Notes under the pieces: generated by a model
Databases searched by the model: none
What the model saw: the letters and a program-made list of their open reading frames with translations, nothing else
Told to the model about the DNA's origin: nothing
Part shown: positions 2,758 through 17,175 of the stretch, one piece after another
Numbering within the stretch: the first letter of the stretch is position 1
Layout: each line of letters starts with the position of its first letter
Virus record (IMG/VR): IMGVR_UViG_2872180393_000002
Length of the DNA: 17,175 bases
Origin: a virus
Taxonomy: Duplodnaviria; Heunggongvirae; Uroviricota; Caudoviricetes
Strand: one strand, 5' to 3'
Program-made: the position numbers and the translations under genes

Positions 2758-2944
2758 AGAATTGAGTTGCATTGCAAATTATGAAATGATTTACGGCAAC
2801 AGTAGTCACCATGCTGTTAACCTCGTAAGCAAAAGCCCGATAAGCTTCCTCCTGTACTTATCGTAAGCGCCCCATCAGCGACGTCTTGTGAAAATTGTCC
2901 TGTCTGGCAACAATCGCGCCCATCTATATTGATGGACACGAACG

Positions 2945-3619
2945 ATGAATTCCCAGACAACAAAAGATATTCCCTGCTTCCGTTCTTATTTGCCTGATGC
3001 CCTGCGTTTAAGATTTGAAGATAAACTGACCATCCGGGCCATCGCTCAGCGTCTGGGTCTCAGTCATTCCACAATACATACGCTTTTTCAGCGATTTCTT
3101 GCATCCGGTATCGCATGGCCATTGCCCGATTCAGTTTCATTCGCTCAACTTGACGCCATCCTTTATGCCAACAGAAAGAAGGAATTAACAGAGCCTCAAA
3201 TCAGAGAAGGCTCATGGCGAAAAGAACGGCGAACCAGCTATAGCCGTGAATTTAAGGTCCGTCTGGCTAAGCAGGCGTTACAGCCTGGGGCTGTTGTTGC
3301 CCGGATCGCCAGAGAACACGATATCAATGATAACCTGCTGTTTAAATGGAAAAGCCAGTACGAGGACGGCTTACTGAGCGATGATGACATACAGGAATGC
3401 ATGCCTGTCCCGGTGGCACTGACTGATACGCCGGAGCCGACCAGACCAGTTACAAATCCCTTCTGGCGTAACAAGCATGATGAGCGCCCTGAGGGGGCTC
3501 CCGGAAACGTCCCACGGTGCGAGCTGCATCTTAAATCAGGTGTGGTAAAACTGTTTGACCCTCTCACTCCGGAACTGTTACGGGCGCTAATCCGCGAAAT
3601 GAAAGGGGGTATCCGATGA
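2945..3619 (+). CDS. IS66-family TnpA (helix-turn-helix accessory protein), 224 aa
   Basis: First ORF of the IS66 unit, with an IS66 orf1-like HTH region (SYSREFKVRLAKQAL..ARIAREHDINDNLLFKWKSQY). ATGA overlap with tnpB. Confidence 0.8.
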   Translation: MNSQTTKDIPCFRSYLPDALRLRFEDKLTIRAIAQRLGLSHSTIHTLFQRFLASGIAWPLPDSVSFAQLDAILYANRKKELTEPQIREGSWRKERRTSYSREFKVRLAKQALQPGAVVARIAREHDINDNLLFKWKSQYEDGLLSDDDIQECMPVPVALTDTPEPTRPVTNPFWRNKHDERPEGAPGNVPRCELHLKSGVVKLFDPLTPELLRALIREMKGGIR

Positions 3620-3963
3620 TAACGCTGCCGACCGGTACCAAAATCTGGATCATCGCTGGCATCACAGATATGCGTTGTGGCTTCAATGGCCTGGCTTCGA
3701 AGGTGCAGAACACGCTGAAAGATGACCCGTTCTCCGGGCATATCTTCGTCTTCCGGGGCCGCAGTGGCAAAATGGTGAAAATACTGTGGGCCGATCGTGA
3801 CGGGTTATGCCTGTTCGCCAAACGCCTGGAACGGGGCCGCTTCGTCTGGCCGGTGACCCGGGAAGGGAAAGTGCACCTGACGCCAGCTCAGTTATCCATG
3901 CTACTGGAGGGGATCGCGTGGCAACATCCAAAACGGACAGAACGGCCTGGCATCCGGATATAA
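3616..3963 (+). CDS. IS66-family TnpB (orf2), 115 aa
   Basis: Characteristic IS66 orf2 sequence (MRCGFNGLA..FVFRGRSGKMVKILWADRDGLCLFAKRLE). Confidence 0.9.
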   Translation: MITLPTGTKIWIIAGITDMRCGFNGLASKVQNTLKDDPFSGHIFVFRGRSGKMVKILWADRDGLCLFAKRLERGRFVWPVTREGKVHLTPAQLSMLLEGIAWQHPKRTERPGIRI

Positions 3964-3982
3964 CCCGTGATAAAACAAGGGA

Positions 3983-5584
3983 ATGAACAATGAACTCCCC
4001 GATGATATTGAGCTGCTTAAAGCCATGTTGCGTAAGCAACAGAGTCGGCTTCGACAGTATGCCTGTCAGGTCGCGGGCTATGAGCAGGAAATTGAACGGC
4101 TGAAAGCGCAACTCGACAGGTTGCGTCGTATGTTGTTCGGCCAGAGTTCAGAGAAAAAGCGTCATAAGCTTGAAAATCAGATCCGACAGGCAGAAAAACG
4201 ACTGTCGGAACTGGAAAACCGGCTGAACACAGCCAGAAATCTTCTGGAAGATGCATCGTCAGTCACAGATTCACCTGACACCAGTCCCCCGTCAGAAAAC
4301 CCGATCGCCAGTAAGCCTGAATCCCCGGGACGAAAATCTTCACGAAAACCGCTGCCGGCAGAACTTCCCCGGGAGACACATCGCCTTCTGCCTGCTGAAA
4401 CCAGTTGCCCGGCCTGTGGAGGTGTTCTGAAAGAAATGGGGGAAACAATCTCAGAGCAACTGGATATCATTAATACCGCCTTTAAAGTTATCGAAACCAT
4501 ACGTCCCAAACTGGCCTGTAGCCGGTGTGATGTCATCGTTCAGGCACCACTTCCCCCTAAACCGATCGAACGCGGTTATGCCAGTGCAGAGTTACTTGCA
4601 CGGATCCTGGTCAGCAAATATATGGAACATATCCCTTTATATCGCCAGTCAGAAATATACGCGCGACAGGGCGTGGAGCTGAGCCGTAATACCATGGTGC
4701 GCTGGGTATCAGAAATGGCAGACAAACTCCGTCCTCTGTATATAGCGCTGAATGACTATGTTCTGGAGGCAGGAAAGGTGCACGCAGATGACACTCCGGT
4801 GAAAGTACTGGCCCCGGGGAACGGAAAGACGAAAACGGGTCGTCTGTGGGTATACGTCAGGGATGATCGTAATGCGGGTTCATCCCTGCCGGCAGCCGTC
4901 TGGTTCGCGTATTCGGCAGATCGCAAAGGAGAACATCCGCAGCGCCACCTGGCAAAGTATCAGGGCGTACTGCAGGCTGATGCCTATGCAGGTTATAACG
5001 TACTGTACGAAACGGGCCGGGTGAAGGAAGCCGGGTGCCAGGCCCACGCCCGCCGAAAAATCCATGACGAGGATGTGCGCCGTCCGACAGAAATGACTCA
5101 GGAAGCGCTCAGACGGATAGCAGAGTTATACGACATAGAAGCGGAGATACGTGGCAGTCCGGCAGAGGAACGGCTTGCAGTCAGAAAAGCCAGAAGCGTC
5201 CAGTTGATGCAGTCGTTGTACGACTGGATACAGTTGCAGAGGAAAACGCTGTCGAAACATGCGGAGATGGCGAAGGCGTTCGACTATATCCTGAATCACT
5301 GGAATGCGCTGAACGAGTTCTGTCGTGACGGCTGGGTGGAAATAGACAACAACATCGGTGAAAACGCGTTACGATCGGTGGCGGTTGGAAGAAAAAATTA
5401 TCTCTTTTTCGGCTCAGACAAGGGAGGAGAAAGTGCGGCGATCATCTACAGTCTGCAGGTCACCTGCAAACAGAACGAAGTGGAGCCGGAGGACTGGTTG
5501 CGCGAAGTGATCGAGAAGCTCAATGACTGGCCGTCGAACCAAGTGCATGAACTGCTGCCCTGGAACTTCTCGTCTGTAAAATAA
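3983..5584 (+). CDS. IS66-family transposase TnpC (DDE), 533 aa
   Basis: N-terminal leucine zipper, CxxC..CxxC zinc finger, and a DDE core typical of IS66 TnpC. Confidence 0.9.
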
Positions 5585-5641
5585 TCCTTACGCTACGTAC
5601 TTCTCGGGGCGCTTACTACTTATCGGGCTTTTTTTGGGTAC

Positions 5642-6054: not shown

Positions 6055-6118
6055 TGAGGTAGCCTGAGTTTAACGGACACTCCTTCCTGAAATAGAATGG
6101 CATCAGAAGGAGCTAATA

Positions 6119-6421
6119 ATGAGCAGAAAAACCCAACGTTACTCTAAAGAGTTCAAAGCCGAAGCTGTCAGAACGGTTCTTGAAAATCAACTTTCGATCA
6201 GTGAAGGCGCTTCCCGATTATCCCTTCCTGAAGGCACTTTAGGACAATGGGTTACCGCCGCCAGAAAAGGGCTCGGTACTCCTGGTTCCCGCACGGTGGC
6301 TGAACTGGAATCTGAAATTCTGCAACTGCGTAAGGCGTTAAATGAAGCTCGCCTTGAGCGAGATATATTAAAAAAAGCAACAGCGTATTTTGCACAGGAG
6401 TCGCTGAAAAATACGCGTTAA
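6119..6421 (+). CDS. IS3-family OrfA (HTH), IS600-like
   Basis: 100-aa ORF with an IS3-type HTH and leucine zipper, identical in all three copies. Confidence 0.9.
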   Translation: MSRKTQRYSKEFKAEAVRTVLENQLSISEGASRLSLPEGTLGQWVTAARKGLGTPGSRTVAELESEILQLRKALNEARLERDILKKATAYFAQESLKNTR

Positions 6422-6456
6422 TCGAACAATGGCGACAACAATTTCCCATTGAAGCG

Positions 6457-7275
6457 ATGTGTCAGGTATTTGGTGTATCCAGGAGCGGTTATTACAACTG
6501 GGTACAGCATGAACCCTCAGACAGAAAACAAAGTGATGAGCGGCTAAAACTGGAGATTAAGGTGGCACATATCCGCACTCGCGAAACATATGGAACCCGG
6601 CGGCTCCAGACGGAGCTGGCAGAGAATGGCATCATCGTTGGTCGTGACCGACTGGCACGTCTTCGTAAGGAGCTAAGGCTACGCTGTAAGCAGAAACGCA
6701 AGTTCAGAGCGACTACGAACCCGAACCACAATCTGCCAGTTGCGCCAAATCTGCTGAACCAGACGTTCGCTCCTACAGCACCAAATCAGGTCTGGGTGGC
6801 GGACCTGACGTATGTTGCCACACAGGAGGGATGGTTGTACCTAGCTGGCATCAAAGATGTTTATACGTGCGAAATTGTCGGCTACGCCATGGGAGAGCGC
6901 ATGACAAAAGAGCTGACAGGTAAAGCCCTGTTTATGGCGCTCAGGAGCCAGCGCCCACCTGCCGGGCTAATCCACCACTCTGATCGAGGTTCACAGTACT
7001 GCGCATACGATTACCGGGTCATACAGGAGCAGTTTGGTCTGAAAACATCAATGTCGCGTAAAGGTAACTGTTACGACAACGCTCCGATGGAAAGCTTCTG
7101 GGGAACGCTGAAAAATGAGAGCCTGAGCCACTATCGTTTTAATAACCGGGATGAAGACATCTCAGTAATACGGGAATACATTGAGATTTTCTACAATCGT
7201 CAGCGTCGTCACTCTCGTCTGGGGAATATCTCCCCGGCAGCCTTCAGGGAAAAATATCATCATATGGCTGCTTAA
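6457..7275 (+). CDS. IS3-family OrfB (DDE integrase-type transposase catalytic domain); expressed as an OrfAB fusion by -1 frameshifting
   Basis: DDE / rve-type motifs (WVADLTY..., HHSDRGSQY..., NAPMESFWGTLKNE). The frame is open upstream of the first ATG back to the slippery site. Confidence 0.9.
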   Translation: MCQVFGVSRSGYYNWVQHEPSDRKQSDERLKLEIKVAHIRTRETYGTRRLQTELAENGIIVGRDRLARLRKELRLRCKQKRKFRATTNPNHNLPVAPNLLNQTFAPTAPNQVWVADLTYVATQEGWLYLAGIKDVYTCEIVGYAMGERMTKELTGKALFMALRSQRPPAGLIHHSDRGSQYCAYDYRVIQEQFGLKTSMSRKGNCYDNAPMESFWGTLKNESLSHYRFNNRDEDISVIREYIEIFYNRQRRHSRLGNISPAAFREKYHHMAA

Positions 7276-7318
7276 AAAAAGAACAAATGGTAGTGTCCGC
7301 TATTGCCAGTACACCTCA

Positions 7319-8246: not shown

Positions 8247-8289
8247 TGAGGTGTACTGGCAATAGCGGACACTACCATTTGTTCTTTTT

Positions 8290-9108
8290 TTAAGCAGCCA
8301 TCTGATGATATTTTTCCCTGAAGGCTGCCGGGGAGATATTCCCCAGACGAGAGTGACGACGCTGACGATTGTAGAAAATCTCAATGTATTCCCGTATTAC
8401 TGAGATGGCTTCATCCCGGTTATTAAAACGATAGTGGCTCAGGCTCTCATTTTTCAGCGTTCCCCAGAAGCTTTCCATCGGAGCGTTGTCGTAACAGTTA
8501 CCTTTACGCGACATTGATGTTTTCAGACCAAACTGCTCCTGTATGACCCGGTAATCGTATGCGCAGTACTGTGAACCTCGATCAGAGTGGTGGATTAGCC
8601 CGGCAGGTGGGCGCTGGCTCCTGAGCGCCATAAACAGGGCTTTACCTGTCAGCTCTTTTGTCATGCGCTCTCCCATGGCGTAGCCGACAATTTCGCACGT
8701 ATAAACATCTTTGATGCCAGCTAGGTACAACCATCCCTCCTGTGTGGCAACATACGTCAGGTCCGCCACCCAGACCTGATTTGGTGCTGTAGGAGCGAAC
8801 GTCTGGTTCAGCAGATTTGGCGCAACTGGCAGATTGTGGTTCGGGTTCGTAGTCGCTCTGAACTTGCGTTTCTGCTTACAGCGTAGCCTTAGCTCCTTAC
8901 GAAGACGTGCCAGTCGGTCACGACCAACGATGATGCCATTCTCTGCCAGCTCCGTCTGGAGCCGCCGGGTTCCATATGTTTCGCGAGTGCGGATATGTGC
9001 CACCTTAATCTCCAGTTTTAGCCGCTCATCACTTTGTTTTCTGTCTGAGGGTTCATGCTGTACCCGGTTGTAATAACCGCTCCTGGATACACCAAATACC
9101 TGACACAT
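8290..9108 (-). CDS. IS3-family OrfB (DDE), copy B
   Basis: Matches copy A except for point differences (W to R near the N-terminus, D to A, H to Q near the C-terminus). Confidence 0.9.
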   Translation of the reverse strand: MCQVFGVSRSGYYNRVQHEPSDRKQSDERLKLEIKVAHIRTRETYGTRRLQTELAENGIIVGRDRLARLRKELRLRCKQKRKFRATTNPNHNLPVAPNLLNQTFAPTAPNQVWVADLTYVATQEGWLYLAGIKDVYTCEIVGYAMGERMTKELTGKALFMALRSQRPPAGLIHHSDRGSQYCAYDYRVIQEQFGLKTSMSRKGNCYDNAPMESFWGTLKNESLSHYRFNNRDEAISVIREYIEIFYNRQRRHSRLGNISPAAFREKYHQMAA

Positions 9109-9143
9109 CGCTTCAATGGGAAATTGTTGTCGCCATTGTTCGA

Positions 9144-9446
9144 TTAACGCGTATTTTTCAGCGACTCCTGTGCAAAATACGCTGTTGCTTTTTTTAATAT
9201 ATCTCGCTCAAGGCGAGCTTCATTTAACGCCTTACGCAGTTGCAGAATTTCAGATTCCAGTTCAGCCACCGTGCGGGAACCAGGAGTACCGAGCCCTTTT
9301 CTGGCGGCGGTAACCCATTGTCCTAAAGTGCCTTCAGGAAGGGATAATCGGGAAGCGCCTTCACTGATCGAAAGTTGATTTTCAAGAACCGTTCTGACAG
9401 CTTCGGCTTTGAACTCTTTAGAGTAACGTTGGGTTTTTCTGCTCAT
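9144..9446 (-). CDS. IS3-family OrfA, copy B
   Basis: Identical to OrfA of copy A. Confidence 0.9.
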   Translation of the reverse strand: MSRKTQRYSKEFKAEAVRTVLENQLSISEGASRLSLPEGTLGQWVTAARKGLGTPGSRTVAELESEILQLRKALNEARLERDILKKATAYFAQESLKNTR

Positions 9447-9507
9447 TATTAGCTCCTTCTGATGCCATTCTATTTCAGGAAGGAGTGTCCGTTAAACTCA
9501 GGCTACC

Positions 9508-10923
9508 TCATAAAGCCCGTGCCTTCTCAGGGTCGGTAAAGTTCGCCAGCAATCGGCGGATAATAACGGGGATTTCAGCCGCAATCTTTTCCGGTAGCTC
9601 CCTGTCTTTTTCGGCCTCACTGACGATATTGTCGAAACGGAAAATCACGCGACGACGTGCCACACCTCCGGCCCGTTCGGTGAATATCATCGGGTTGTTG
9701 TCGGTCGCCAGCACCACCGCCCTGATTACCGCCGTGAAACGCTTTTCATATTTCGGGTTAATTTCCACGGGGTCGCCGCCCGTGATTTTCTTGATGCCCG
9801 TTCCTTCGCCTGTATATTTCGGCTGGTCAGCCAGGACGATAAGACGACTCCCGACAACCTGCGCACGTCCACCAGCATCATCAAGCGATGTCATTTCAGC
9901 GCTTACCGTGTTCTGTTTCCCTGCCAGAAGGCTGGCTATGTGTGTGAATGTACTTTTACCGCTCCCGCCGTCTCCGGTGGCCTCAATAAACATCTGCCAG
10001 TCGTACCGGTTCGCCATAATCATGTAAAGCGCGGCACATATGCGCATCATCTTGCGCGGGTCTTTTCCGGCTGCGTGATCAAGCCATTTATGAAAGTTTG
10101 GCGCGTTGTCGCGGATATTCTCCCCTGGTGCTGGTGGCGTGTACTCAATGCCGTTGTGCGTGGTGATCCAGTTCTCCGGCGTGTGCGGGGAAAATTCCCC
10201 CGTTTTCAGGTTAAGCACACCATTAGTGAACGGTAGCAAATCACTGGACGGCTCGCCCATCGGGTCAGCAATAACTTTTAACGCTTCAACGGCGTTATTA
10301 ATTGCCCGCTTGCTGAATGTGGCCCCGTGTTCTGAATAAACCGCCACCATTTCGCGGCTCAGTTCCATTGTGCTGACCGGACACCATATCCCGCCGCGCC
10401 ATACGTGAACGATTTCACTTTCCGGATGCACACAAACGCCATCAAATCGACCAGCAAGCATCTGTGCGCGCTCACTGTCTGCCATCTGCGAAAGTTGCGC
10501 CTTTTGCTTTACCGGAAGCTCAATGACCAGACCATCAGAAAGATTCTGGCGTTCACGGGCCAGATATTCGCGCCAGTTCTGCACCTCCTGGCCGTGCATA
10601 CCCTCAAGATAAAAATTTGCATCCTGTACACCTGCCGCCGCCAGCTTCTGACCAATCGCCTTGATCATTACAGGCTCAAGATGTCCGGCTCTGTATATGC
10701 GTGCTGATTTTCTGCCATCCGGCACAATTTGCAGATTATCCAGTTCGGATAGCTGCTGCTCTCCAAGCCACACAGGAGGCTCATTATCTCCGGCTGTACG
10801 CGCGTCATGTTCCTGCCACTGTTTCGCGTGTGCCCAGGCATCACTACCCGCAAAGATAATTACCTCTGTGTCTTTGTGTTTTATTCCGCGTGGCTGTTTT
10901 TTTACGTTCGGTGCCAGTTTCAT
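9508..10923 (-). pseudogene. replication protein: N-terminal primase-associated region, D5_N-like region and SF3 (P4-alpha / D5-type) helicase with Walker A GDGGSGKST; truncated, with its stop codon supplied by the IS end
   Basis: Walker A and downstream SF3 motifs. The stop TGA is the complement of the terminal TCA of the IS at 9508-9510. Confidence 0.8.
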
Positions 10924-11224: not shown

Positions 11225-11458
11225 TTATTCTCCGGTGTGGGGCGCTTTATACTGGTCGTGTAATGTCTCTATTTCCTGCAACTCATTTATTACAGGCTCA
11301 AGAAGCGTTATTAATGCCGTGACAATCCTTGATTTCTGTTTATCACGCTCATTATCGCCAAATGTTTCCAGACACATTTGCAATATTTCCAACATATTTT
11401 CACTGTGAGAAAGTGCAAGAAATGCGCGGTCTGTTATTTCAATGTAAATATCACGCAT
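11225..11458 (-). CDS. hypothetical acidic 77-aa protein, first gene of the replication operon
   Basis: Bounded ORF with an upstream in-frame stop at 11471-11473 and a GGGG RBS. No family recognised. Confidence 0.45.
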   Translation of the reverse strand: MRDIYIEITDRAFLALSHSENMLEILQMCLETFGDNERDKQKSRIVTALITLLEPVINELQEIETLHDQYKAPHTGE

Positions 11459-11495
11459 AACCCCGTTACTTTATTCGTACCTCTTATAATGGGGT

Positions 11496-11691
11496 GTTAG
11501 CCAGCCAGACCCGGCATGATTACTGCCCCCAGTCGTCCATGATCCGGGGGGTGATGTCACCGGGTCTGGTGGGGCGCTGGTAACCGCTAATAGGGGTCAG
11601 GTCAGGCACTTTTGCCGGGACCGTCTGTAACGTGGATGCCGGTACCTGCTCCCCGTGGTTATCTGGTTAACCCATATACAAGGGAGACAGA
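11496..11691 (+). ncRNA. candidate IS110-type guide (bridge) RNA in the non-coding left end
   Basis: About 200 nt of structured non-coding DNA 5' of the recombinase gene, with a 10-bp stem CCAGACCCGG (11505-11514) / CCGGGTCTGG (11560-11569) and internal repeats. Based on position and structure only. Confidence 0.3.
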
Positions 11692-12915
11692 ATGACCGAA
11701 TCCAGCGATTACGAATCCGTCCAGGTCTTTATCGGCGTTGATGTCGGTAAAGATACGCATCACGCTGTTGCCATTAATCGTTCAGGTAAACGCCTGTTCG
11801 ATAAAGCATTACCCAACGACGAAAACAAACTCAGGTCGCTAATATCTGACCTGAAACAACATGGTCAGATACTTCTGGTTGTTGATCAGCCAGCTACCAT
11901 CGGTGCGTTACCTGTCGCCGTTGCCCGCTCAGAAGGAGTCCTTGTCGGATACCTCCCTGGACTGGCCATGCGCCGCATAGCCGACTTACACGCCGGTGAA
12001 GCTAAAACTGATGCTCGTGACGCTGCCATCATTGCCGAAGCTGCCCGTACCCTGCCTCACGCGCTACGCACGCTGAAACTGGCTGACGAGCAAATCGCCG
12101 AACTCTCCATGCTCTGCGGCTTCGATGATGATCTTGCCGCACAGACAACGCAGGCCAGCAACCGTATCCGCGGCCTTCTGACCCAGATACATCCGGCACT
12201 GGAGCGCGTTCTCGGTCCGAGACTTGAGCACCCGGCGGTACTCGATCTTCTCCAGCGATATCCCTCACCAGAAAAACTCGCTTCGCTGGGTGAGAAGAAG
12301 CTGGCAGCCCAGCTCTGCAAACTTGCGCCTCGTCTGGGTAAACGCCTTGCAGCAGACATAGCTCAGGCACTGGCCGAACAAACCGTCGTCGTTCCCGGCA
12401 CGAATGCCGCTGCCGTAGTACTGCCACGTCTGGCACTCCAGCTCATCACGCTGCGTAAGCAAAGAGACGAGGTGGCGCTTGAGGTAGAACAGCGAGTTCT
12501 TGCTCACCCTCTTTACCCGGTCCTGACCAGTATGCCCGGAGTCGGTGTCAGGACCGCAGCCAGACTCCTCACCGAGGTCGCCTGCCGCGCCTTCGCCTCT
12601 GCCGCACATCTCGCTGCTTATGCTGGCCTTGCGCCGGTAACTCGGCGATCCGGCTCGTCAATACGCGGTGAGCATCCCTCGCGACGGGGTAATAAAGCTC
12701 TCAAACGGGCGTTGTTCCTGTCGGCCTTCGCCGCGCTCAGGGATCCGCTCTCCAGGGCTTACTACACCCGCAAAATGAGTCAGGGAAAACGACACAATCA
12801 GGCGCTTATCGCCCTGGCGAATACGGGCCGCGAATACAGCAACACAACCGGACGGGCAATGGTTACGCGCTTCGCGTTCAGTCCAGGCGGTGACGTGGAT
12901 GATTTGGGACTCTGA
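11692..12915 (+). CDS. IS110-family recombinase/transposase (N-terminal DEDD RuvC-like domain, C-terminal Tnp domain), 407 aa
   Basis: N-terminal IGVDVGKDTHH motif, helix-hairpin-helix MPGVGVRTAARLL, and C-terminal RRSGSSIRGEH..ALKRALFLSAF serine motif. AGGGAG RBS. Confidence 0.9.
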   Translation: MTESSDYESVQVFIGVDVGKDTHHAVAINRSGKRLFDKALPNDENKLRSLISDLKQHGQILLVVDQPATIGALPVAVARSEGVLVGYLPGLAMRRIADLHAGEAKTDARDAAIIAEAARTLPHALRTLKLADEQIAELSMLCGFDDDLAAQTTQASNRIRGLLTQIHPALERVLGPRLEHPAVLDLLQRYPSPEKLASLGEKKLAAQLCKLAPRLGKRLAADIAQALAEQTVVVPGTNAAAVVLPRLALQLITLRKQRDEVALEVEQRVLAHPLYPVLTSMPGVGVRTAARLLTEVACRAFASAAHLAAYAGLAPVTRRSGSSIRGEHPSRRGNKALKRALFLSAFAALRDPLSRAYYTRKMSQGKRHNQALIALANTGREYSNTTGRAMVTRFAFSPGGDVDDLGL

Positions 12916-13149
12916 CGCACCAAAGGCGATAAAGCGCCAGAGAAAGGCGGTTTGAGAATGTACAAGGGTAGGGGTAGTAGCCATGTCGGCAGCCTCCTTG
13001 ATTGATGGAATGTAACCACCGCCGGAGGTCCTAAGCTCGCTGGCGGTGGACTGTACAGGGTTAGGACTACTGGCAATCAAGGGAACCAGCCTACCCGAAG
13101 GTAGCCCCATACAGCCCACCATTGTATAGGTGTGCGTGTGCGTCGATAC

Positions 13150-13171
13150 AAAAAAAGACGCGTGCGGCGTC
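13150..13171 (-). terminator. candidate rho-independent terminator on the minus strand inside a roughly 500-bp non-coding, structured region
   Basis: Hairpin GACGC-gtgcg-GCGTC at 13157-13171, preceded on the plus strand by A7 (13150-13156), which is a U7 tail on the minus strand. Confidence 0.3.
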
Positions 13172-13432
13172 TGTATCGCCTCGATTGTCAGCGGGGTCCT
13201 AATCCCGGCACCCGTTTTATAAGGTGCACGCGAATCATAGCCTTGGCTGGCAGTGGCGATCAACTGGTTTTTCATACCCGCTTTATTCAGGTTGTGCGAG
13301 TCCCGCCCTTGCAGGTGTGTGGTATGATTTAACATAGCTACCTCGATACTGTTGCTATCGTTGGTGGTTAGACGCCCTGCATGTGTTGCGAGCACTGCGG
13401 GGCGTTGCTTAATTTGAGTGACAAAACTCAAA

Positions 13433-13512
13433 CTGCGCGCACAGATTAAAATCATGTGTGCGCACATGTCAATACTTAACATCTCATTTTTTTTGCTGTA
13501 TTGTGTGCGCCC
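13433..13512. promoter_or_regulatory. cluster of TGTGCGCAC-type palindromic operator-like sites upstream of the 65-aa gene
   Basis: CTGCGCGCACAG at 13433-13444, near-palindrome CATGTGTGCGCACATG at 13453-13468, and TTGTGTGCGCCC at 13501-13512. Confidence 0.4.
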
Positions 13513-13540
13513 ATAAAGTCCATTTAAGTGAGGTGCATCA

Positions 13541-13738
13541 ATGTCTAGCGGTAACACAAACAACAAATCAGCAAAGAAAAATATTCGATTCCCACATGAG
13601 CTTATAGATGGGGTTTATGCCAGCGTTGAACAAGAAAAATTAACTAATCCTAGTGCTAATTTTTCCGCATGGGTCTTAGATGCCTGTGGACGCAAATTAA
13701 AATATGAACAGCGCCGGAAGGCCAAAGAATCAGAATAA
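13541..13738 (+). CDS. small 65-aa DNA-binding-like protein (ribbon-helix-helix-like pattern); candidate regulator
   Basis: GTGAGG RBS 7 nt upstream. The pattern KNIRFPHELIDGV followed by two predicted helices resembles RHH regulators. Assigned by eye only. Confidence 0.45.
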   Translation: MSSGNTNNKSAKKNIRFPHELIDGVYASVEQEKLTNPSANFSAWVLDACGRKLKYEQRRKAKESE

Positions 13739-13762
13739 TCACTATCAGCGCCGTGGCGTGAG

Positions 13763-13975
13763 GTGCTACGGCGCATTGCTTTACAGGTACACACAATGAC
13801 CAACAAAGAATCAACCAATACACCATCGCAAAAAACGAACAGAGAGCACGAAAATATGGCGCTCGAGCATGAATCAGAAAGATTCGCACCATGTGCTTTT
13901 GCCCTTGAGCAATTCCTTAAAGAGTACAGGGAAACGCGCTCATTGCAGGTATGGCAACGAACTGAACCAGCCTGA
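13763..13975 (+). CDS. hypothetical protein of 59-70 aa (likely start MTNKES..)
   Basis: Open frame downstream of the 65-aa gene, convergent with alpA. No family recognised. Confidence 0.3.
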   Translation: MLRRIALQVHTMTNKESTNTPSQKTNREHENMALEHESERFAPCAFALEQFLKEYRETRSLQVWQRTEPA

Positions 13976-14048
13976 TAGCGTCTATCATCCCCGTGCTTAT
14001 GTTTGGGATCACATACACATAAGGCGCAGCGGGTTAATTGTTCAGAAA

Positions 14049-14076
14049 GGCGGCTCCATATCGGGGCCGCTTTTTT
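14049..14076 (+). terminator. weak candidate terminator for the plus-strand small genes
   Basis: 5-bp stem GCGGC/GCCGC around an 11-nt loop, followed by T6 (14071-14076). Confidence 0.25.
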
Positions 14077-14102: not shown

Positions 14103-14309
14103 TTAAGCAGCCGTTCCGCGTGCTTCCTGTTCGCGTTCTTTCTGCCAGGCCAACACATCATCCTCATACCATCCGCGACGGCGTAAACCAACGCGAAAAC
14201 CCTGCGGAAATTCTCCGGCGTTGATCATGCTTTGCAGCGTGCTGTCTGCCTTGATGTGGATAATTTTTTTTACTTCCTGGCGAAAGATAATTTTTCTGAT
14301 TGCTTCCAT
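14103..14309 (-). CDS. alpA: AlpA-family transcriptional regulator / excisionase-like protein (68 aa)
   Basis: Size, position next to a P4-type integrase, and the motif pattern (IHIKADSTLQSMINAGEFPQGFRVGLRRRGWYEDDVLAWQ) typical of the phage AlpA DNA-binding domain. Confidence 0.75.
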   Translation of the reverse strand: MEAIRKIIFRQEVKKIIHIKADSTLQSMINAGEFPQGFRVGLRRRGWYEDDVLAWQKEREQEARGTAA

Positions 14310-14784: not shown

Positions 14785-15552
14785 CTACACGGCTCGGATA
14801 CCCCTTTTACCACTGGCGAGGGTTACGCCCGTCGCCGCAGCCTCGACAAATTCGCCCCACCAGCGCATCAGCACGATGCGTTTTTCTATGTAGTTGCTCC
14901 GGTTGTATGCCCGTCTAACTTCGTTGGTGTCGACGTGGGCAAGTGCCGCCTCTATTACGTCCGGCTCGAATCCTTCCTCGTTCGCTGCTGTGCTGAATAT
15001 GGCGCGTAATCCATGAGACACCAGCACGCCAGCGAATCCCATACGCTGCAATGCTGCGTTAGCGGTCTGGCTGTTCATCGGCTGCTGTGGGTCTTTCAGA
15101 CTTGGGAAAACGTAATTGCGGTGGTGGCTGATTGGTTTCATGGCCTCCAGCACCGCCATAGCCTGACCGGAAAGCGGGATAACGTGATCCCTGCGCATCT
15201 TCATGCGTCCTGCAGGTATCGTCCATTGCTTCGCGTCCAGGTTGATTTCATCCCACCGCGTTGATGACGCTTCGGCGGGACGGGTTACGGTCAGTAACTG
15301 CCATTCAATCAGTAATCTGGTCTGCCGTTCTGTTGCCGATACTGATAAAGCCTGCATAAGCTCCGGCAGCTGTTCGGGGCGGATTGTTGGCATATGTTTT
15401 TTTACAGGTGAGGGAAACGCCTTACGCACATTCATAGCCGGATTGGCATCAATCAGCCCACTGTTGGCGGCGTAATCCATTACCTCATTAACGCGCTGTA
15501 AAACCCGCTTGAGTGTTTCCAGGTTGCCGCGCTCCTTGATGGGTGTAAGCAC
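14785..15552 (-). pseudogene. int: tyrosine integrase (P4-type), C-terminal catalytic part; gene interrupted by IS600-like copy C
   Basis: Catalytic-domain motifs HGLRAIFST (H-x-x-R) and RAYNRSNY (tyrosine nucleophile). The 5' end abuts the IS at 15552/15553. Confidence 0.85.
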
Positions 15553-15616
15553 TGAGGTAGCCTGAGTTTAACGGACACTCCTTCCTGAAATAGAATGGCA
15601 TCAGAAGGAGCTAATA

Positions 15617-15919
15617 ATGAGCAGAAAAACCCAACGTTACTCTAAAGAGTTCAAAGCCGAAGCTGTCAGAACGGTTCTTGAAAATCAACTTTCGATCAGT
15701 GAAGGCGCTTCCCGATTATCCCTTCCTGAAGGCACTTTAGGACAATGGGTTACCGCCGCCAGAAAAGGGCTCGGTACTCCTGGTTCCCGCACGGTGGCTG
15801 AACTGGAATCTGAAATTCTGCAACTGCGTAAGGCGTTAAATGAAGCTCGCCTTGAGCGAGATATATTAAAAAAAGCAACAGCGTATTTTGCACAGGAGTC
15901 GCTGAAAAATACGCGTTAA
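15617..15919 (+). CDS. IS3-family OrfA, copy C
   Basis: Identical to OrfA of copies A and B. Confidence 0.9.
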   Translation: MSRKTQRYSKEFKAEAVRTVLENQLSISEGASRLSLPEGTLGQWVTAARKGLGTPGSRTVAELESEILQLRKALNEARLERDILKKATAYFAQESLKNTR

Positions 15920-15954
15920 TCGAACAATGGCGACAACAATTTCCCATTGAAGCG

Positions 15955-16815
15955 ATGTGTCAGGTATTTGGTGTATCCAGGAGCGGTTATTACAACTGGG
16001 TACAGCATGAACCCTCAGACAGAAAACAAAGTGATGAGCGGCTAAAACTGGAGATTAAGGTGGCACATATCCGCACTCGCGAAACATATGGAACCCGGCG
16101 GCTCCAGACGGAGCTGGCAGAGAATGGCATCATCGTTGGTCGTGACCGACTGGCACGTCTTCGTAAGGAGCTAAGGCTACGCTGTAAGCAGAAACGCAAG
16201 TTCAGAGCGACTACGAACCCGAACCACAATCTGCCAGTTGCGCCAAATCTGCTGAACCAGACGTTCGCTCCTACAGCACCAAATCAGGTCTGGGTGGCGG
16301 ACCTGACGTATGTTGCCACACAGGAGGGATGGTTGTACCTAGCTGGCATCAAAGATGTTTATACGTGCGAAATTGTCGGCTACGCCATGGGAGAGCGCAT
16401 GACAAAAGAGCTGACAGGTAAAGCCCTGTTTATGGCGCTCAGGAGCCAGCGCCCACCTGCCGGGCTAATCCACCACTCTGATCGAGGTTCACAGTACTGC
16501 GCATACGATTACCGGGTCATACAGGAGCAGTTTGGTCTGAAAACATCAATGTCGCGTAAAGGTAACTGTTACGACAACGCTCCGATGGAAAGCTTCTGGG
16601 GAACGCTGAAAAATGAGAGCCTGAGCCACTATCGTTTTAATAACCGGGATGAAGCCATCTCAGTAATACGGGAATACATTGAGATTTTCTACAATCGTCA
16701 GCGTCGTCACTCTCGTCTGGGGAATATCTCCCGGCAGCCTTCAGGGAAAAATATCATCAGATGGCTGCTTAAAAAAAGAACAAATGGTAGTGTCCGCTAT
16801 TGCCAGTACACCTCA
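15955..16815 (+). pseudogene. IS3-family OrfB, copy C, frameshifted about 14 codons before the normal stop by a 1-bp deletion; the frame reads out of the IS to 17175
   Basis: CTCCCGGCAG here versus CTCCCCGGCAG in copies A and B. The DDE core lies upstream of the lesion and is intact. Confidence 0.8.
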
Positions 16816-17175
16816 CACCTCAACGAACCTTCGGGTGGTGAGGGTATCTATTGGCGTGTTGCCGATGAACGGGAATACATATTTATCCAGCGAACGCCAG
16901 ATATCTTTAATCGTGTTGGGGGCCAGATTCTGGCTGATTTTCACCTGGTACCATGCCGCCGCCACATTTTCGACTTCGGGCCTCTGTCTCTCTTTTTTGC
17001 CTCTCGTGGTCCTGCGGGTCAGTTCCGGCACGAATTAACGCCCTGTACTCGCTACGGCGTTTTCTGGCATCAGCCAGGGAAACATCTTCAAGCGATCCAA
17101 AACTCAGCAATATTCTTTTTTTGTCCGATGGTCGGTAGTAGGAAAATCTCCAGAGTTTTGATCCAGACGGTTTGA
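16816..17175 (-). pseudogene. int: tyrosine integrase N-terminal part (partial at the window edge), with an internal frameshift near 16975-17005
   Basis: Two overlapping frames carry consecutive integrase N-terminal homology: ..GSKLWRFSY..SLEDVSLADARKRR..GTDPQDHER, then ..NVAAAWYQVK..YVFPFIGNTPIDTLT. They switch near a T6 run at 16993-16998. Confidence 0.75.

What the first reader, a model, noticed from the sequence alone, without database searches (positions are those of the whole stretch)
13433..13738. Small RHH-like protein preceded by three TGTGCGCAC-type palindromic sites: candidate autoregulated repressor
Repeated near-palindromes sit within 110 bp upstream of a 65-aa gene whose sequence pattern fits a ribbon-helix-helix DNA-binding protein, transcribed opposite to the replication operon. 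This resembles divergent repressor/operator switches of phage satellites, here broken apart by the IS110-family insertion.
Basis: inference. Interest (0 to 1): 0.45.

Follow-up and report, generated by a model that had tools for sequence, protein, structure and literature searches.

The report
Satellite repressor gene with three operators
A 65-residue protein of a family with no assigned function is very probably the small DNA-binding repressor that keeps a phage-parasitic island (a Gram-negative PICI) silent, through three matching DNA sites over two back-to-back promoters. The field has called the existence of such a repressor in these islands unclear.

Summary
TGTGCGCACA-type sites lie at 13434-13443, 13457-13466 and 13504-13513, upstream of an intact 65-aa ORF (13541-13738, +). 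They are the only matches with at most one mismatch in the window.

The strongest evidence is comparative. About 45 related loci share the architecture, from Enterobacterales, Orbales and Pasteurella, including the prototype island EcCICFT073. The site sequence changes together with the protein's N-terminal arm. Operators plus the DNA-binding part of the gene are swapped as one cassette between islands.

Inferred geometry:
- O2 fills the spacer of a conserved leftward promoter and O1 covers its start. That promoter drives the isrK/C4 RNAs, an icd-like gene and the primase operon.
- O3 overlaps the -10/+1 of the gene's own promoter.

So this is most likely an autoregulated RHH repressor of the island's replication operon. 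Binding and repression are untested. A conserved candidate antisense RNA lies next to it. The island in this window is dead, cut by five insertion sequences.

The parts
13541..13738 (+). Gene for a 65-aa DUF3950 / YlcI-YnfO family protein, the predicted ribbon-helix-helix repressor.
13528..13535 (+). Shine-Dalgarno-like GTGAGGTG, 5 nt before the ATG.
   Evidence: Read directly from the sequence.
13434..13443 (.). Operator O1, TGCGCGCACA. The family consensus is CTGTGCGCACAG over 13433-13444, and the window copy has T-to-C at 13436. It overlaps the last base of the -10 and covers the predicted start of the leftward promoter.
13457..13466 (.). Operator O2, the perfect palindrome TGTGCGCACA. It lies in the spacer of the leftward promoter, directly next to its -35.
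   Evidence: Column identity is 100% across six loci from four genera.
13504..13513 (.). Operator O3, TGTGCGCCCA. It overlaps the last base of the -10 and the predicted start of the gene's own promoter.
13443..13472 (-). Predicted leftward promoter P_L: -35 TTGACA (complement of 13467-13472), an 18-bp spacer, and -10 TAATCT (complement of 13443-13448).
   Evidence: TTGAC is present in 36 of 40 non-redundant loci. A TAnnnT hexamer follows 16-19 bp downstream (18 bp in nearly all) in 37 of 40. This is a prediction only.
13476..13504 (+). Predicted promoter P_R of the repressor gene: -35 TTAACA (13476-13481), a 17-bp spacer, and -10 TATTGT (13499-13504).
   Evidence: Consensus scan. A TAT(A/T/G)GT-type -10 lies at the same offset in most loci. 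This is a prediction only.
13323..13328 (+). Conserved -10-like TATGAT, preceded by TGg, inside the 5' end of the leftward ORF. It is the putative promoter of an antisense RNA.
   Evidence: The pattern G..TA...T is invariant in 32 loci across unrelated leftward coding sequences. The A at -11 corresponds to a third codon position that stays T while the amino acid varies among S, H, D and T (and sequence reading).
13334..13418 (+). Candidate cis-antisense RNA of about 85 nt. It is complementary to the start codon (13333-13335) and Shine-Dalgarno sequence (13340-13344) of the first leftward gene. It has hairpin 1 (13344-13360), a conserved TTGGTGGTTAGA, GC-rich hairpin 2 (13372-13405) and a T-rich tail.
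   Evidence: RNAalifold finds compensatory changes in 16 of 20 pairs. On the + strand 96.9% of cells are paired, with 93 G.U pairs. On the - strand 82.8% are paired, with 3 G.U pairs. MFE is -38.7 kcal/mol, z = -4.9. No Rfam family matches.
13151..13227 (-). isrK-type RNA (a relative of P4 seqA) in the leader of the leftward operon.
   Evidence: Rfam RF01394, 64 bits against a gathering score of 50.
13039..13126 (-). C4-type antisense/immunity RNA (a relative of P1 c4 and P4 CI) in the leftward operon.
   Evidence: Rfam RF01695, 78.6 bits against a gathering score of 45.
13763..13975 (+). Second small ORF on the repressor's strand. The probable start is the ATG at 13796. It is found only in the E. 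coli-type loci.
   Evidence: phrog_21027, E 2e-13. tblastn finds it only in L001 and L002.
14044..14076 (+). Intrinsic-terminator-like hairpin followed by six T, ending the rightward unit. It lies between that unit and the convergent alpA-like gene (14103-14309, -).

Best explanation
What it is: The window holds a decayed Gram-negative phage-inducible chromosomal island (PICI) of the EcCICFT073 type. Its genes (integrase, alpA-like regulator, immunity RNAs, primase, capsid) all run on the - strand. The exception is a short rightward unit, the 65-aa gene and a small ORF after it, which lies between the alpA-like gene and the replication operon.

Proposed mechanism: The protein is a DUF3950 / YlcI-YnfO member that most likely folds as a ribbon-helix-helix dimer. 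The dimer would put its N-terminal strand (K12-K13-N14-I15-R16-F17) into the major groove of 10-12 bp palindromes (consensus CTGTGCGCACAG).
- O2 fills the spacer of the leftward promoter P_L and O1 overlaps its -10 and covers its start site. Bound protein should therefore exclude RNA polymerase.
- That would silence the leftward operon: the isrK and C4 immunity RNAs, the icd-like gene, small ORFs and the primase, which together form the island's replication module.
- O3 overlaps the -10/+1 of the gene's own promoter P_R, giving negative autoregulation.

Operators and the DNA-reading part of the protein form an exchangeable specificity ('immunity') cassette.

Shown by computation:
- the sites, their clustering and their conservation
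- concerted change of the sites together with the protein arm
- cassette swapping between islands
- purifying selection on the gene
- family membership
- a fold prediction compatible with RHH

Inferred, not shown:
- dimer formation and DNA binding
- promoter positions
- repression and autoregulation
- how repression is lifted

One possibility for lifting repression is AlpA-dependent transcription coming from the alpA side, which would run antisense through the repressor gene into the operon.
For: Family and gene:
- DUF3950 / YlcI_YnfO_N membership.
- dN/dS about 0.1.
- 13 invariant residues, including R16 F17 P18 and N40 F41 S42 W44 V45.

Fold:
- Two helices after a free N-terminal arm.
- Weak Pfam matches to HicB_lk_antitox, Arc, NikA-like, CopG_antitoxin, RHH_1 and RHH_5.
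- NIRFPHELID aligns with NLRWPREVLD of Arc.

Sites:
- The only three matches in the window, clustered.
- Sites are 97-100% conserved against 63-68% in spacers, while synonymous sites are saturated.
- The same three-site architecture occurs in about 45 loci, from E. coli to Gilliamella, Orbus and Pasteurella.

Co-variation with the protein:
- A locus's own O2 core matches its own O1 and O3 at 13.0 of 16 positions. Against loci of other classes the figure is 10.25 of 16 (permutation p <= 1e-4).
- Arm position 12 is the protein column most informative about operator class, and position 5 is second.
- Y12/G14 and F12/G14 proteins from four genera share GTGTTTAAACAC. K12/N14 proteins from four genera share TGTGCGCACA.

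Cassette:
- Homology to EcCICFT073 and to L001 stops at 13407/13408 and resumes at 13709.
- This cassette type occurs in 69 E. coli genomes, against 1745 for the flanks.
- A 99% identical cassette sits in a capsid-forming PICI backbone.

Geometry and position:
- TTGAC in 36 of 40 non-redundant loci, with a TAnnnT hexamer 16-19 bp downstream (18 bp in nearly all) in 37 of 40, so O2 lies in the spacer and O1 at the start.
- The gene always sits between the integrase and a primase/helicase operon.
Against: - No sequence or profile search reaches a solved RHH protein.
- hhalign against the Arc family gives only 14% probability over 21 columns.
- The promoters are consensus predictions, and the window's P_L -10 (TAATCT) is poor.
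- The co-variation tests do not correct for shared ancestry.
- Published work on EcCICFT073 explains induction through the activator AlpA and reports no repressor (PMC6092414). A repressor is therefore not required by existing data.
- Homologues in lambda, DLP12 and Qin sit next to cos and nu1, and the upstream region read (DLP12) shows no such operator trio. The family is therefore not tied to this role.
- In this window O1 carries a mismatch and the protein has I25V and D26Y. This copy may no longer work.
Confidence: 0.75

Rival explanations
1. RHH antitoxin of a type II toxin-antitoxin pair. The protein autoregulates its own two-gene operon through the palindromes, and the downstream small ORF (13763-13975) is the toxin. 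The effect on the leftward operon is incidental.
Against: The downstream ORF is found only in E. coli-type loci. In five loci the integrase gene follows within 344-401 bp. A hairpin separates the two ORFs and they do not overlap. Two of the three sites lie over the divergent promoter rather than the gene's own. Antitoxins dominate the solved RHH structures, so those matches are expected for any RHH.
Confidence: 0.05
2. A real small protein, but not the factor that binds the palindromes. The sites are read by another island or helper-phage protein, for example AlpA or the first leftward gene product. The 65-aa protein would have a different role, such as the cos-associated role suggested by its lambda, DLP12 and Qin homologues.
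For: Homologues in lambdoid phages lie about 360 bp from cos, divergent from nu1/nohD. One remote relative carries a small-terminase domain. AlpA is the experimentally shown regulator of these islands (PMC6092414).
Against: The site sequence follows the 65-aa gene, not its neighbours. Loci with the same leftward gene and the same alpA but a different ylcI core have different sites (window against L001 and EcCICFT073). Loci with different leftward genes but the same protein arm have identical sites (window, L005, L008, L009). The recombination breakpoints enclose exactly the operators plus the N-terminal and core part of this gene.
Confidence: 0.1
3. The main regulator of the first leftward gene is RNA rather than protein: the conserved candidate + strand antisense RNA (about 13334-13418) together with the isrK/C4 system. 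The palindromes would mainly tune the repressor gene's own expression.
For: A structured + strand RNA shows compensatory changes and a strong G.U strand bias. It has an invariant -10 signature. isrK and C4 are present. P4-type satellites use RNA immunity (PMC10111431).
Against: This complements the protein-repressor model rather than excluding it. C4 and isrK were found only in the two E. coli loci of the 12 related loci scanned (and in the window), whereas the protein/operator module is found in all loci examined. O1 and O2 sit on P_L, not on the repressor gene's own promoter. No transcript evidence exists for the antisense RNA.
Confidence: 0.1

Closest known systems
Phage P22 immI region: the Mnt and Arc ribbon-helix-helix repressors, the Pant/Pmnt divergent promoters and the sar antisense RNA
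   Same: A small RHH repressor is transcribed divergently from the operon it silences. Operators overlap back-to-back promoters, and the repressor regulates itself. The strand motif N-[LI]-R-[WF]-P-x-E-[LV]-[IL]-D is shared with Arc. A short antisense RNA covers the ribosome-binding site of the first regulated gene (candidate here).
   Different: It is not a Pfam Arc family member (hhalign probability 14%). There are three separate 10-12 bp palindromes 23 and 47 bp apart rather than one 17-21 bp operator. The host element is a satellite, and the regulated operon carries replication genes rather than an antirepressor. The details of P22 are from my own knowledge.
Stl / Rpr master repressors of SaPIs and other Gram-positive PICIs
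   Same: It occupies the same place in the element, between the integration module and the replication module. It is divergent from the replication operon, and the presumed role is keeping the island silent until a helper phage acts (PMC6092414).
   Different: Stl is transcribed in the same direction as int (PMC6092414) and is not an RHH protein (to my knowledge, a much larger helix-turn-helix protein). Here the protein has 65 residues, is RHH-like, and is convergent with int and alpA. Derepression by helper proteins is shown for Stl and is unknown here. [quoted passage not shown]
P4 CI/seqA and P1 c4 RNA immunity (Rfam C4 and isrK)
   Same: The operon downstream of O1/O2 begins with isrK and C4 RNAs, as in P4-like and some PICI 'Bro zones' (PMC10111431).
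   Different: Those systems act through RNA-RNA pairing after transcription starts. The feature here is a protein/operator layer at the promoter, and it also occurs in loci where no C4/isrK was found.
E. coli K-12 YlcI (DLP12), YnfO (Qin) and the unannotated lambda homologue
   Same: They belong to the same Pfam/NCBIfam family, are similar in size, and share the IRFP...NFSAWV...C motifs.
   Different: They lie next to cos and divergent from nu1/nohD, not between int and a replication operon. No GTG-N-CAC trio is seen upstream of ylcI. Their function is also unknown.
RHH antitoxins and plasmid RHH regulators (ParD, CopG, omega, TacA)
   Same: These are the best structural matches, and they autoregulate through repeats or palindromes at their own promoter.
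   Different: There is no conserved toxin or partition partner, and two of the three sites control a divergent operon.

Membership tests
DUF3950 / YlcI-YnfO (Pfam PF13132, NCBIfam NF041551, phrog_949) | Score above the curated cut-offs of the family models | tested here: met
   PF13132 scores 26.1 bits against a cut-off of 25. NF041551 scores 57.9 bits against 30. phrog_949 gives E 3.1e-26.
Ribbon-helix-helix superfamily | Short N-terminal strand followed by two helices joined by a tight turn | tested here: inconclusive
   The AlphaFold2 monomer has helices at 18-33 and 41-64 after a free arm. The strand is not formed, as expected without the partner chain. The loop of 7 residues is longer than the classical G-x-S/T/N turn.
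Ribbon-helix-helix superfamily | Structural similarity to solved RHH domains | tested here: met
Ribbon-helix-helix superfamily | Significant sequence or profile match to a known RHH family | tested here: inconclusive
   Only sub-threshold matches were found: HicB_lk_antitox for 11 of 39 members (best E 0.0021), plus Arc, NikA-like, CopG_antitoxin and RHH_1. Among remote relatives, CopG_antitoxin matched four (best E 1.6e-4) and RHH_5 one. PDB profile searches were empty.
Ribbon-helix-helix superfamily | Homodimer with an intermolecular two-stranded sheet that contacts bases | not testable with these tools
   This needs a multimer model or an experiment.
Arc/Mnt family (Pfam PF03869) | Profile match over the whole domain | tested here: not met
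   hhalign of A1 against an Arc alignment gives probability 14% and P 0.0019, covering only the strand and the start of helix A, 21 columns. One of 39 members matches PF03869 at E 0.009.
Repressor/operator switch at divergent promoters | Repeated matching sites overlapping core promoter elements | tested here: met
   O2 lies in the P_L spacer, O1 at the P_L start, and O3 at the P_R -10/+1. The promoter elements are conserved in 36-37 of 40 non-redundant loci. The promoters are predictions.
Repressor/operator switch at divergent promoters | Operator sequence changes together with the DNA-reading part of the protein | tested here: met
   p <= 1e-4; position 12 is the most informative column. The cassette breakpoints are at 13408 and 13709. 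The tests are not corrected for shared ancestry.
Repressor/operator switch at divergent promoters | Protein binds the sites and lowers transcription | not testable with these tools
   This needs EMSA or footprinting and reporter assays.
Type II toxin-antitoxin module | Conserved adjacent toxin gene in one operon | tested here: not met
   The downstream ORF is present only in E. coli-type loci, and in five loci the integrase follows directly.
Gram-negative PICI (EcCICFT073 type) | int, alpA-like regulator, primase/replication module and phage-like capsid genes in one co-oriented island | tested here: met
   Integrase, AlpA-like HTH, D5_N primase and capsid E domains are present. The backbone is 75-96% identical by segment (most segments 88-96%) to EcCICFT073. 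Here it is interrupted by five insertion sequences.

The most novel reading that the evidence does not exclude
DUF3950 / YlcI-YnfO proteins are the missing master repressors of Gram-negative PICIs, both the classical and the capsid-forming type. They form exchangeable repressor/operator immunity cassettes. Induction would require overcoming this repressor. That could happen through AlpA-driven transcription running antisense through the gene, or through the helper phage's own YlcI paralogue (lambda encodes one next to cos) forming inactive mixed dimers. A previously undescribed cis-antisense RNA would add a second lock on the first gene of the replication operon.
Probability: 0.35. Interest if true: 0.75.

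Novelty: new member of a known kind. Interest (0 to 1): 0.55.

Why it matters
Gram-positive PICIs are governed by a master repressor, Stl. [quoted passage not shown]

This small gene is absent from the published descriptions held in the library. It is not even called in two deposited satellite genomes. Yet it is present in the prototype EcCICFT073 and in capsid-forming PICIs. It shows the comparative signature of an immunity repressor.

If confirmed, three things would follow:
- A domain of unknown function found in lambda, in two K-12 prophages and in hundreds of enterobacterial islands would gain a function.
- Specificity types for satellite-satellite immunity would be defined.
- The AlpA-only model of induction would become directly testable by deleting one 200-bp gene.

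For this particular window the biological consequence is small, because the island is already dead: the integrase and the regulated operon are both cut by insertion sequences.

Tried and rejected
- Sequence and profile searches of the family against all PDB chains gave only a spurious SHQ1 match or nothing.
- Foldseek against the PDB gave nothing, and against viral structures gave only three non-significant matches (best E 8.5). The AFDB library was unavailable.
- Direct homology to Arc is not demonstrated. I keep only the motif resemblance.
- A search for further operator copies in the window with two mismatches found no more than chance.
- The fourth degenerate copy at 13387-13396 lies in the loop of hairpin 2. 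It is conserved in all specificity classes and does not co-vary. I therefore read it as part of the RNA element, not as an operator.
- The C4/isrK RNAs as the universal partner of the switch are rejected. In the 12 loci scanned they occur only in the two E. coli loci.
- The 302-aa TTG ORF on the - strand across the region (12658-13566), and the 'ash family' annotation, are over-extended calls lying over the isrK/C4 RNAs and the promoter region.
- Literature searches for YlcI, YnfO, DUF3950, RHH in PICIs and antisense RNA in satellites found no functional study.
- A first clustering simulation timed out and was replaced.

Full report
**1. What is in the window**

The window is a decayed Gram-negative phage-inducible chromosomal island (PICI) of the EcCICFT073 type.

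On the - strand it carries the following:
- an integrase (14785-15552, continued at 16816-17175)
- an AlpA-like HTH gene (14103-14309)
- an 'ash'/icd-like region
- a 77-aa ORF (11225-11458)
- a D5_N/P4-type primase (9508-10923)
- a lambda-E-type capsid gene (1412-2467)

The backbone is 75-96% identical by segment (most segments 88-96%) to EcCICFT073 of E. coli CFT073.

Five insertion sequences interrupt it:
- an IS66-family element (2864-5641)
- three nearly identical 1264-bp IS3-family copies (6055-7318, 8247-9510, 15553-16815)
- an IS110-family element (about 11460-12811)

The integrase and the leftward operon are both cut.

**2. The observation**

The 65-aa ORF (13541-13738, +) is intact and has a Shine-Dalgarno-like GTGAGGTG. 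A search for TGTGCGCACA with at most one mismatch finds three matches in the whole window, at 13434, 13457 and 13504. Centre-to-centre spacing is 23 and 47 bp.

No mononucleotide shuffle out of 20000 gave three matches within 100 bp. Relaxing to two mismatches adds nothing above chance.

**3. The protein**

Family and selection:
- It passes the curated cut-offs of Pfam DUF3950 and NCBIfam YlcI_YnfO_N, and it matches phrog_949, which has no known function.
- 82 close homologues occur across Enterobacterales.
- An exhaustive profile search found 119 representatives at 50% clustering.
- The gene is under purifying selection: dN/dS is about 0.1 where it can be computed, and synonymous sites are saturated between genera.
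- Invariant residues include R16 F17 P18 E20 and N40 F41 S42 W44 V45 C49 K52.

Fold evidence:
- AlphaFold2 with a 39-sequence alignment gives mean pLDDT 77.6. The model has a free arm (residues 1-17) and helices at 18-33 and 41-64.
- Foldseek found nothing.
- Weak Pfam matches of family members and remote relatives to named DNA-binding families are to RHH families, scattered among noise matches.
- The segment NIRFPHELID resembles NLRWPREVLD of Arc.
- Profile-profile comparison with an Arc alignment gives only 14% probability.

I conclude that an RHH fold is likely, that membership of the Arc family is not shown, and that the dimer could not be modelled.

**4. Comparative evidence for a repressor/operator pair**

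I fetched 41 loci from one genome per species. I also used E. coli loci and two deposited satellites, Pasteurella Pmp7 and Klebsiella vB_KppS-Ant.

Every locus examined has the same layout upstream of the gene, in this order:
- the start of a divergent gene
- two hairpins
- site O1
- about 23 bp later, site O2, immediately followed by GTCAA (TTGAC on the other strand)
- a T-rich stretch
- a TAT(A/T/G)GT hexamer
- site O3

The sites have the general form GTG-N4-6-CAC. Their inner bases differ between loci and follow the protein's N-terminal arm:

| Site sequence | Arm residues | Genera |
|---|---|---|
| TGTGCGCACA | ..SAKKNIRFP | Escherichia, Klebsiella, Rahnella, Erwinia |
| GTGTTTAAACAC | ..YKGIRFP or ..FKGIRFP | Xenorhabdus, Pectobacterium, Morganella, Pantoea |
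| GGTGCACCCCCAC | ..AQKKIRFP | Klebsiella |
| TGTCCGYACA | ..KRKDIRFP | Gilliamella, Orbus |

Quantitative tests:
- A locus's O2 core matches its own O1 and O3 at 13.0 of 16 positions, against 10.25 for loci of other classes (permutation p <= 1e-4).
- Of all protein columns, position 12 carries the most information about operator class, and position 5 is second.
- In the motif alignment with Arc, positions 12, 14 and 16 correspond to Arc Q9, N11 and R13. To my knowledge these are Arc's base-contacting residues. R16 is invariant here, as are the outer GTG/CAC bases.
- Within the TGTGCGCACA class, site columns are 97-100% identical and spacer columns 63-68%.

These tests do not correct for shared ancestry. 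The next point does not depend on them.

**5. An exchangeable cassette**

Homology between the window and EcCICFT073 or L001 stops at 13407/13408 and resumes at 13709. The non-homologous block is exactly the operators plus the N-terminal and core part of the gene.

Those two islands carry another allele (..ARVPHE...GESTxQF..) with other sites: GGTGTGGCCCAC in EcCICFT073 and GTGTTGAACAC in L001.

The window's cassette occurs in 69 of 5426 E. coli genomes, whereas the flanks match 1745 genomes. A 99% identical copy sits in a capsid-forming PICI with an unrelated backbone.

So the sites follow this gene, not alpA and not the leftward genes. This argues against another protein being the binder.

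**6. Geometry and mechanism (inferred)**

On the - strand, TTGAC(A/G) is present in 36 of 40 non-redundant loci. A TAnnnT hexamer follows 16-19 bp downstream (18 bp in nearly all) in 37 of 40.

In the window this promoter, P_L, has -35 TTGACA (complement of 13467-13472) and -10 TAATCT (complement of 13443-13448). O2 lies in its spacer, and O1 overlaps the -10 and covers the predicted start.

The gene's own promoter, P_R, has -35 TTAACA (13476-13481) and -10 TATTGT (13499-13504). O3 lies over the last -10 base and the predicted start.

Occupancy should therefore silence the leftward operon and limit the protein's own synthesis.

The leftward transcript begins with an isrK-type RNA (13151-13227) and a C4-type RNA (13039-13126). 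These are relatives of P4 seqA and CI (PMC10111431). It then runs into the icd-like gene and, before the IS110 insertion, on to the primase. Among the 12 related loci scanned, C4 and isrK occur only in the two E. coli loci; the window carries them too. They are therefore an added layer, not part of the core switch.

**7. A second conserved element next to the switch**

Between the leftward start codon and O1, 32 loci share four features:
- an invariant G..TA...T pattern (window: TGgTATGAT, with the hexamer at 13323-13328)
- a hairpin over the ribosome-binding site
- a conserved TTGGTGGTTAGA
- a GC-rich hairpin (13372-13405) followed by a T-rich tail

RNAalifold finds compensatory changes in 16 of 20 pairs. 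The pairs hold in 96.9% of cells on the + strand, with 93 G.U pairs. On the - strand they hold in 82.8% of cells, with 3 G.U pairs. One caveat applies: the structure was predicted on the + strand.

The window's 85-nt stretch folds at -38.7 kcal/mol, z = -4.9. No Rfam family matches it.

I read this as a candidate cis-antisense RNA against the translation start of the first leftward gene. It is analogous to sar of P22 immI (my own knowledge). There is no transcript evidence for it.

**8. Comparison with what is known**

The function of YlcI/YnfO is not described in the library.

[quoted passage not shown] Later papers on capsid-forming PICIs, on helper-embedded PICIs and on EcCIMP1 do not mention this gene.

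The prototype EcCICFT073 carries it as a later-added RefSeq locus tag, C_RS30120.

In kind, the feature is an ordinary RHH repressor/operator switch, closest in logic to P22 Mnt/Arc and in position to Stl. What is new is the family assignment and the context.

**9. Caveats**

- Nothing has been shown about binding or repression.
- The fold evidence is low-scoring.
- The promoters are predictions.
- Lambda, DLP12 and Qin homologues sit next to cos in a different context.
- This particular copy has a mutated O1 and two private substitutions in helix A, I25V and D26Y. I25 is a nearly invariant position.

**Verdict**

Novelty: a new member of a known kind, with above-average interest because of the open question about repressors in Gram-negative PICIs.

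Noticed in passing
window 13039-13126 (-) and 13151-13227 (-): A C4 antisense RNA (78.6 bits) and an isrK RNA (64 bits) lie inside the ORF that genome annotations call 'ash family protein'. A weak c4-a1b1 target match lies at 13188-13240. Among the 12 related loci scanned, these RNAs occur only in the two E. coli loci.
   Followed up: partly
window 13323-13418 (+): A conserved -10 signature and two covarying hairpins with a strong + strand G.U bias suggest an undescribed antisense RNA of about 85 nt. It would lie over the start codon and Shine-Dalgarno sequence of the first leftward gene. No Rfam family matches it.
   Followed up: partly
window 13408-13708; L001, L048, L049: The operators plus the core of the repressor gene behave as a swapped cassette. 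Homology to EcCICFT073-type islands breaks at 13408 and 13709. The same cassette, 99% identical, sits in a capsid-forming PICI of E. coli O169:H41. This type occurs in 69 of 5426 E. coli genomes.
   Followed up: yes
window 13436; codons 25-26 of the ORF (13613-13618): The window copy has a private T-to-C change that breaks the 12-bp palindrome of O1. It also has I25V and D26Y in helix A relative to relatives whose cassette is 91-99% identical. This is consistent with decay in a dead island.
   Followed up: partly
L044 6252-6446 (E. coli K-12 ylcI); phage lambda right end, about 360 bp from cos: Lambda and the lambdoid prophages encode a 41% identical homologue next to cos, divergent from nu1/nohD. 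It is unannotated in several lambda records. Helper phages of these islands thus carry a paralogue of the putative satellite repressor.
   Followed up: partly
window 2864-5641, 6055-7318, 8247-9510, 11460-12811, 15553-16815: There are five insertion sequences in 17 kb: one IS66-family element, three 99.7-99.8% identical IS3-family copies and one IS110-family element. The integrase is split by the third IS3 copy.
   Followed up: partly
L045 4435-5109 (-) and L046 6997-7971 (-): In the deposited satellite genomes Pmp7 and vB_KppS-Ant the ylcI-type ORF is not annotated. A long ORF on the opposite strand is called over it, labelled 'transcriptional repressor' in Pmp7.
   Followed up: no
remote relatives P0083-P0198: Eleven distant DUF3950 relatives of about 120-145 aa also match Pfam Recombinase (PF07508), and one matches a small-terminase domain. 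The arm-helix-helix module therefore also occurs fused to other DNA-handling domains.
   Followed up: no
window 13748-13774 and 14044-14076 (+): A 12-pair hairpin lies between the repressor gene and the next small ORF. A strong terminator-like hairpin with six T lies between that ORF and the convergent alpA-like gene. It could serve both directions.
   Followed up: no
window 13387-13396: A degenerate fourth copy of the site (TGCGAGCACT), 47 bp left of O1, lies in the loop of hairpin 2. This loop (GTGTTG..GCAC) is conserved in all specificity classes and does not co-vary with the protein.
   Followed up: partly
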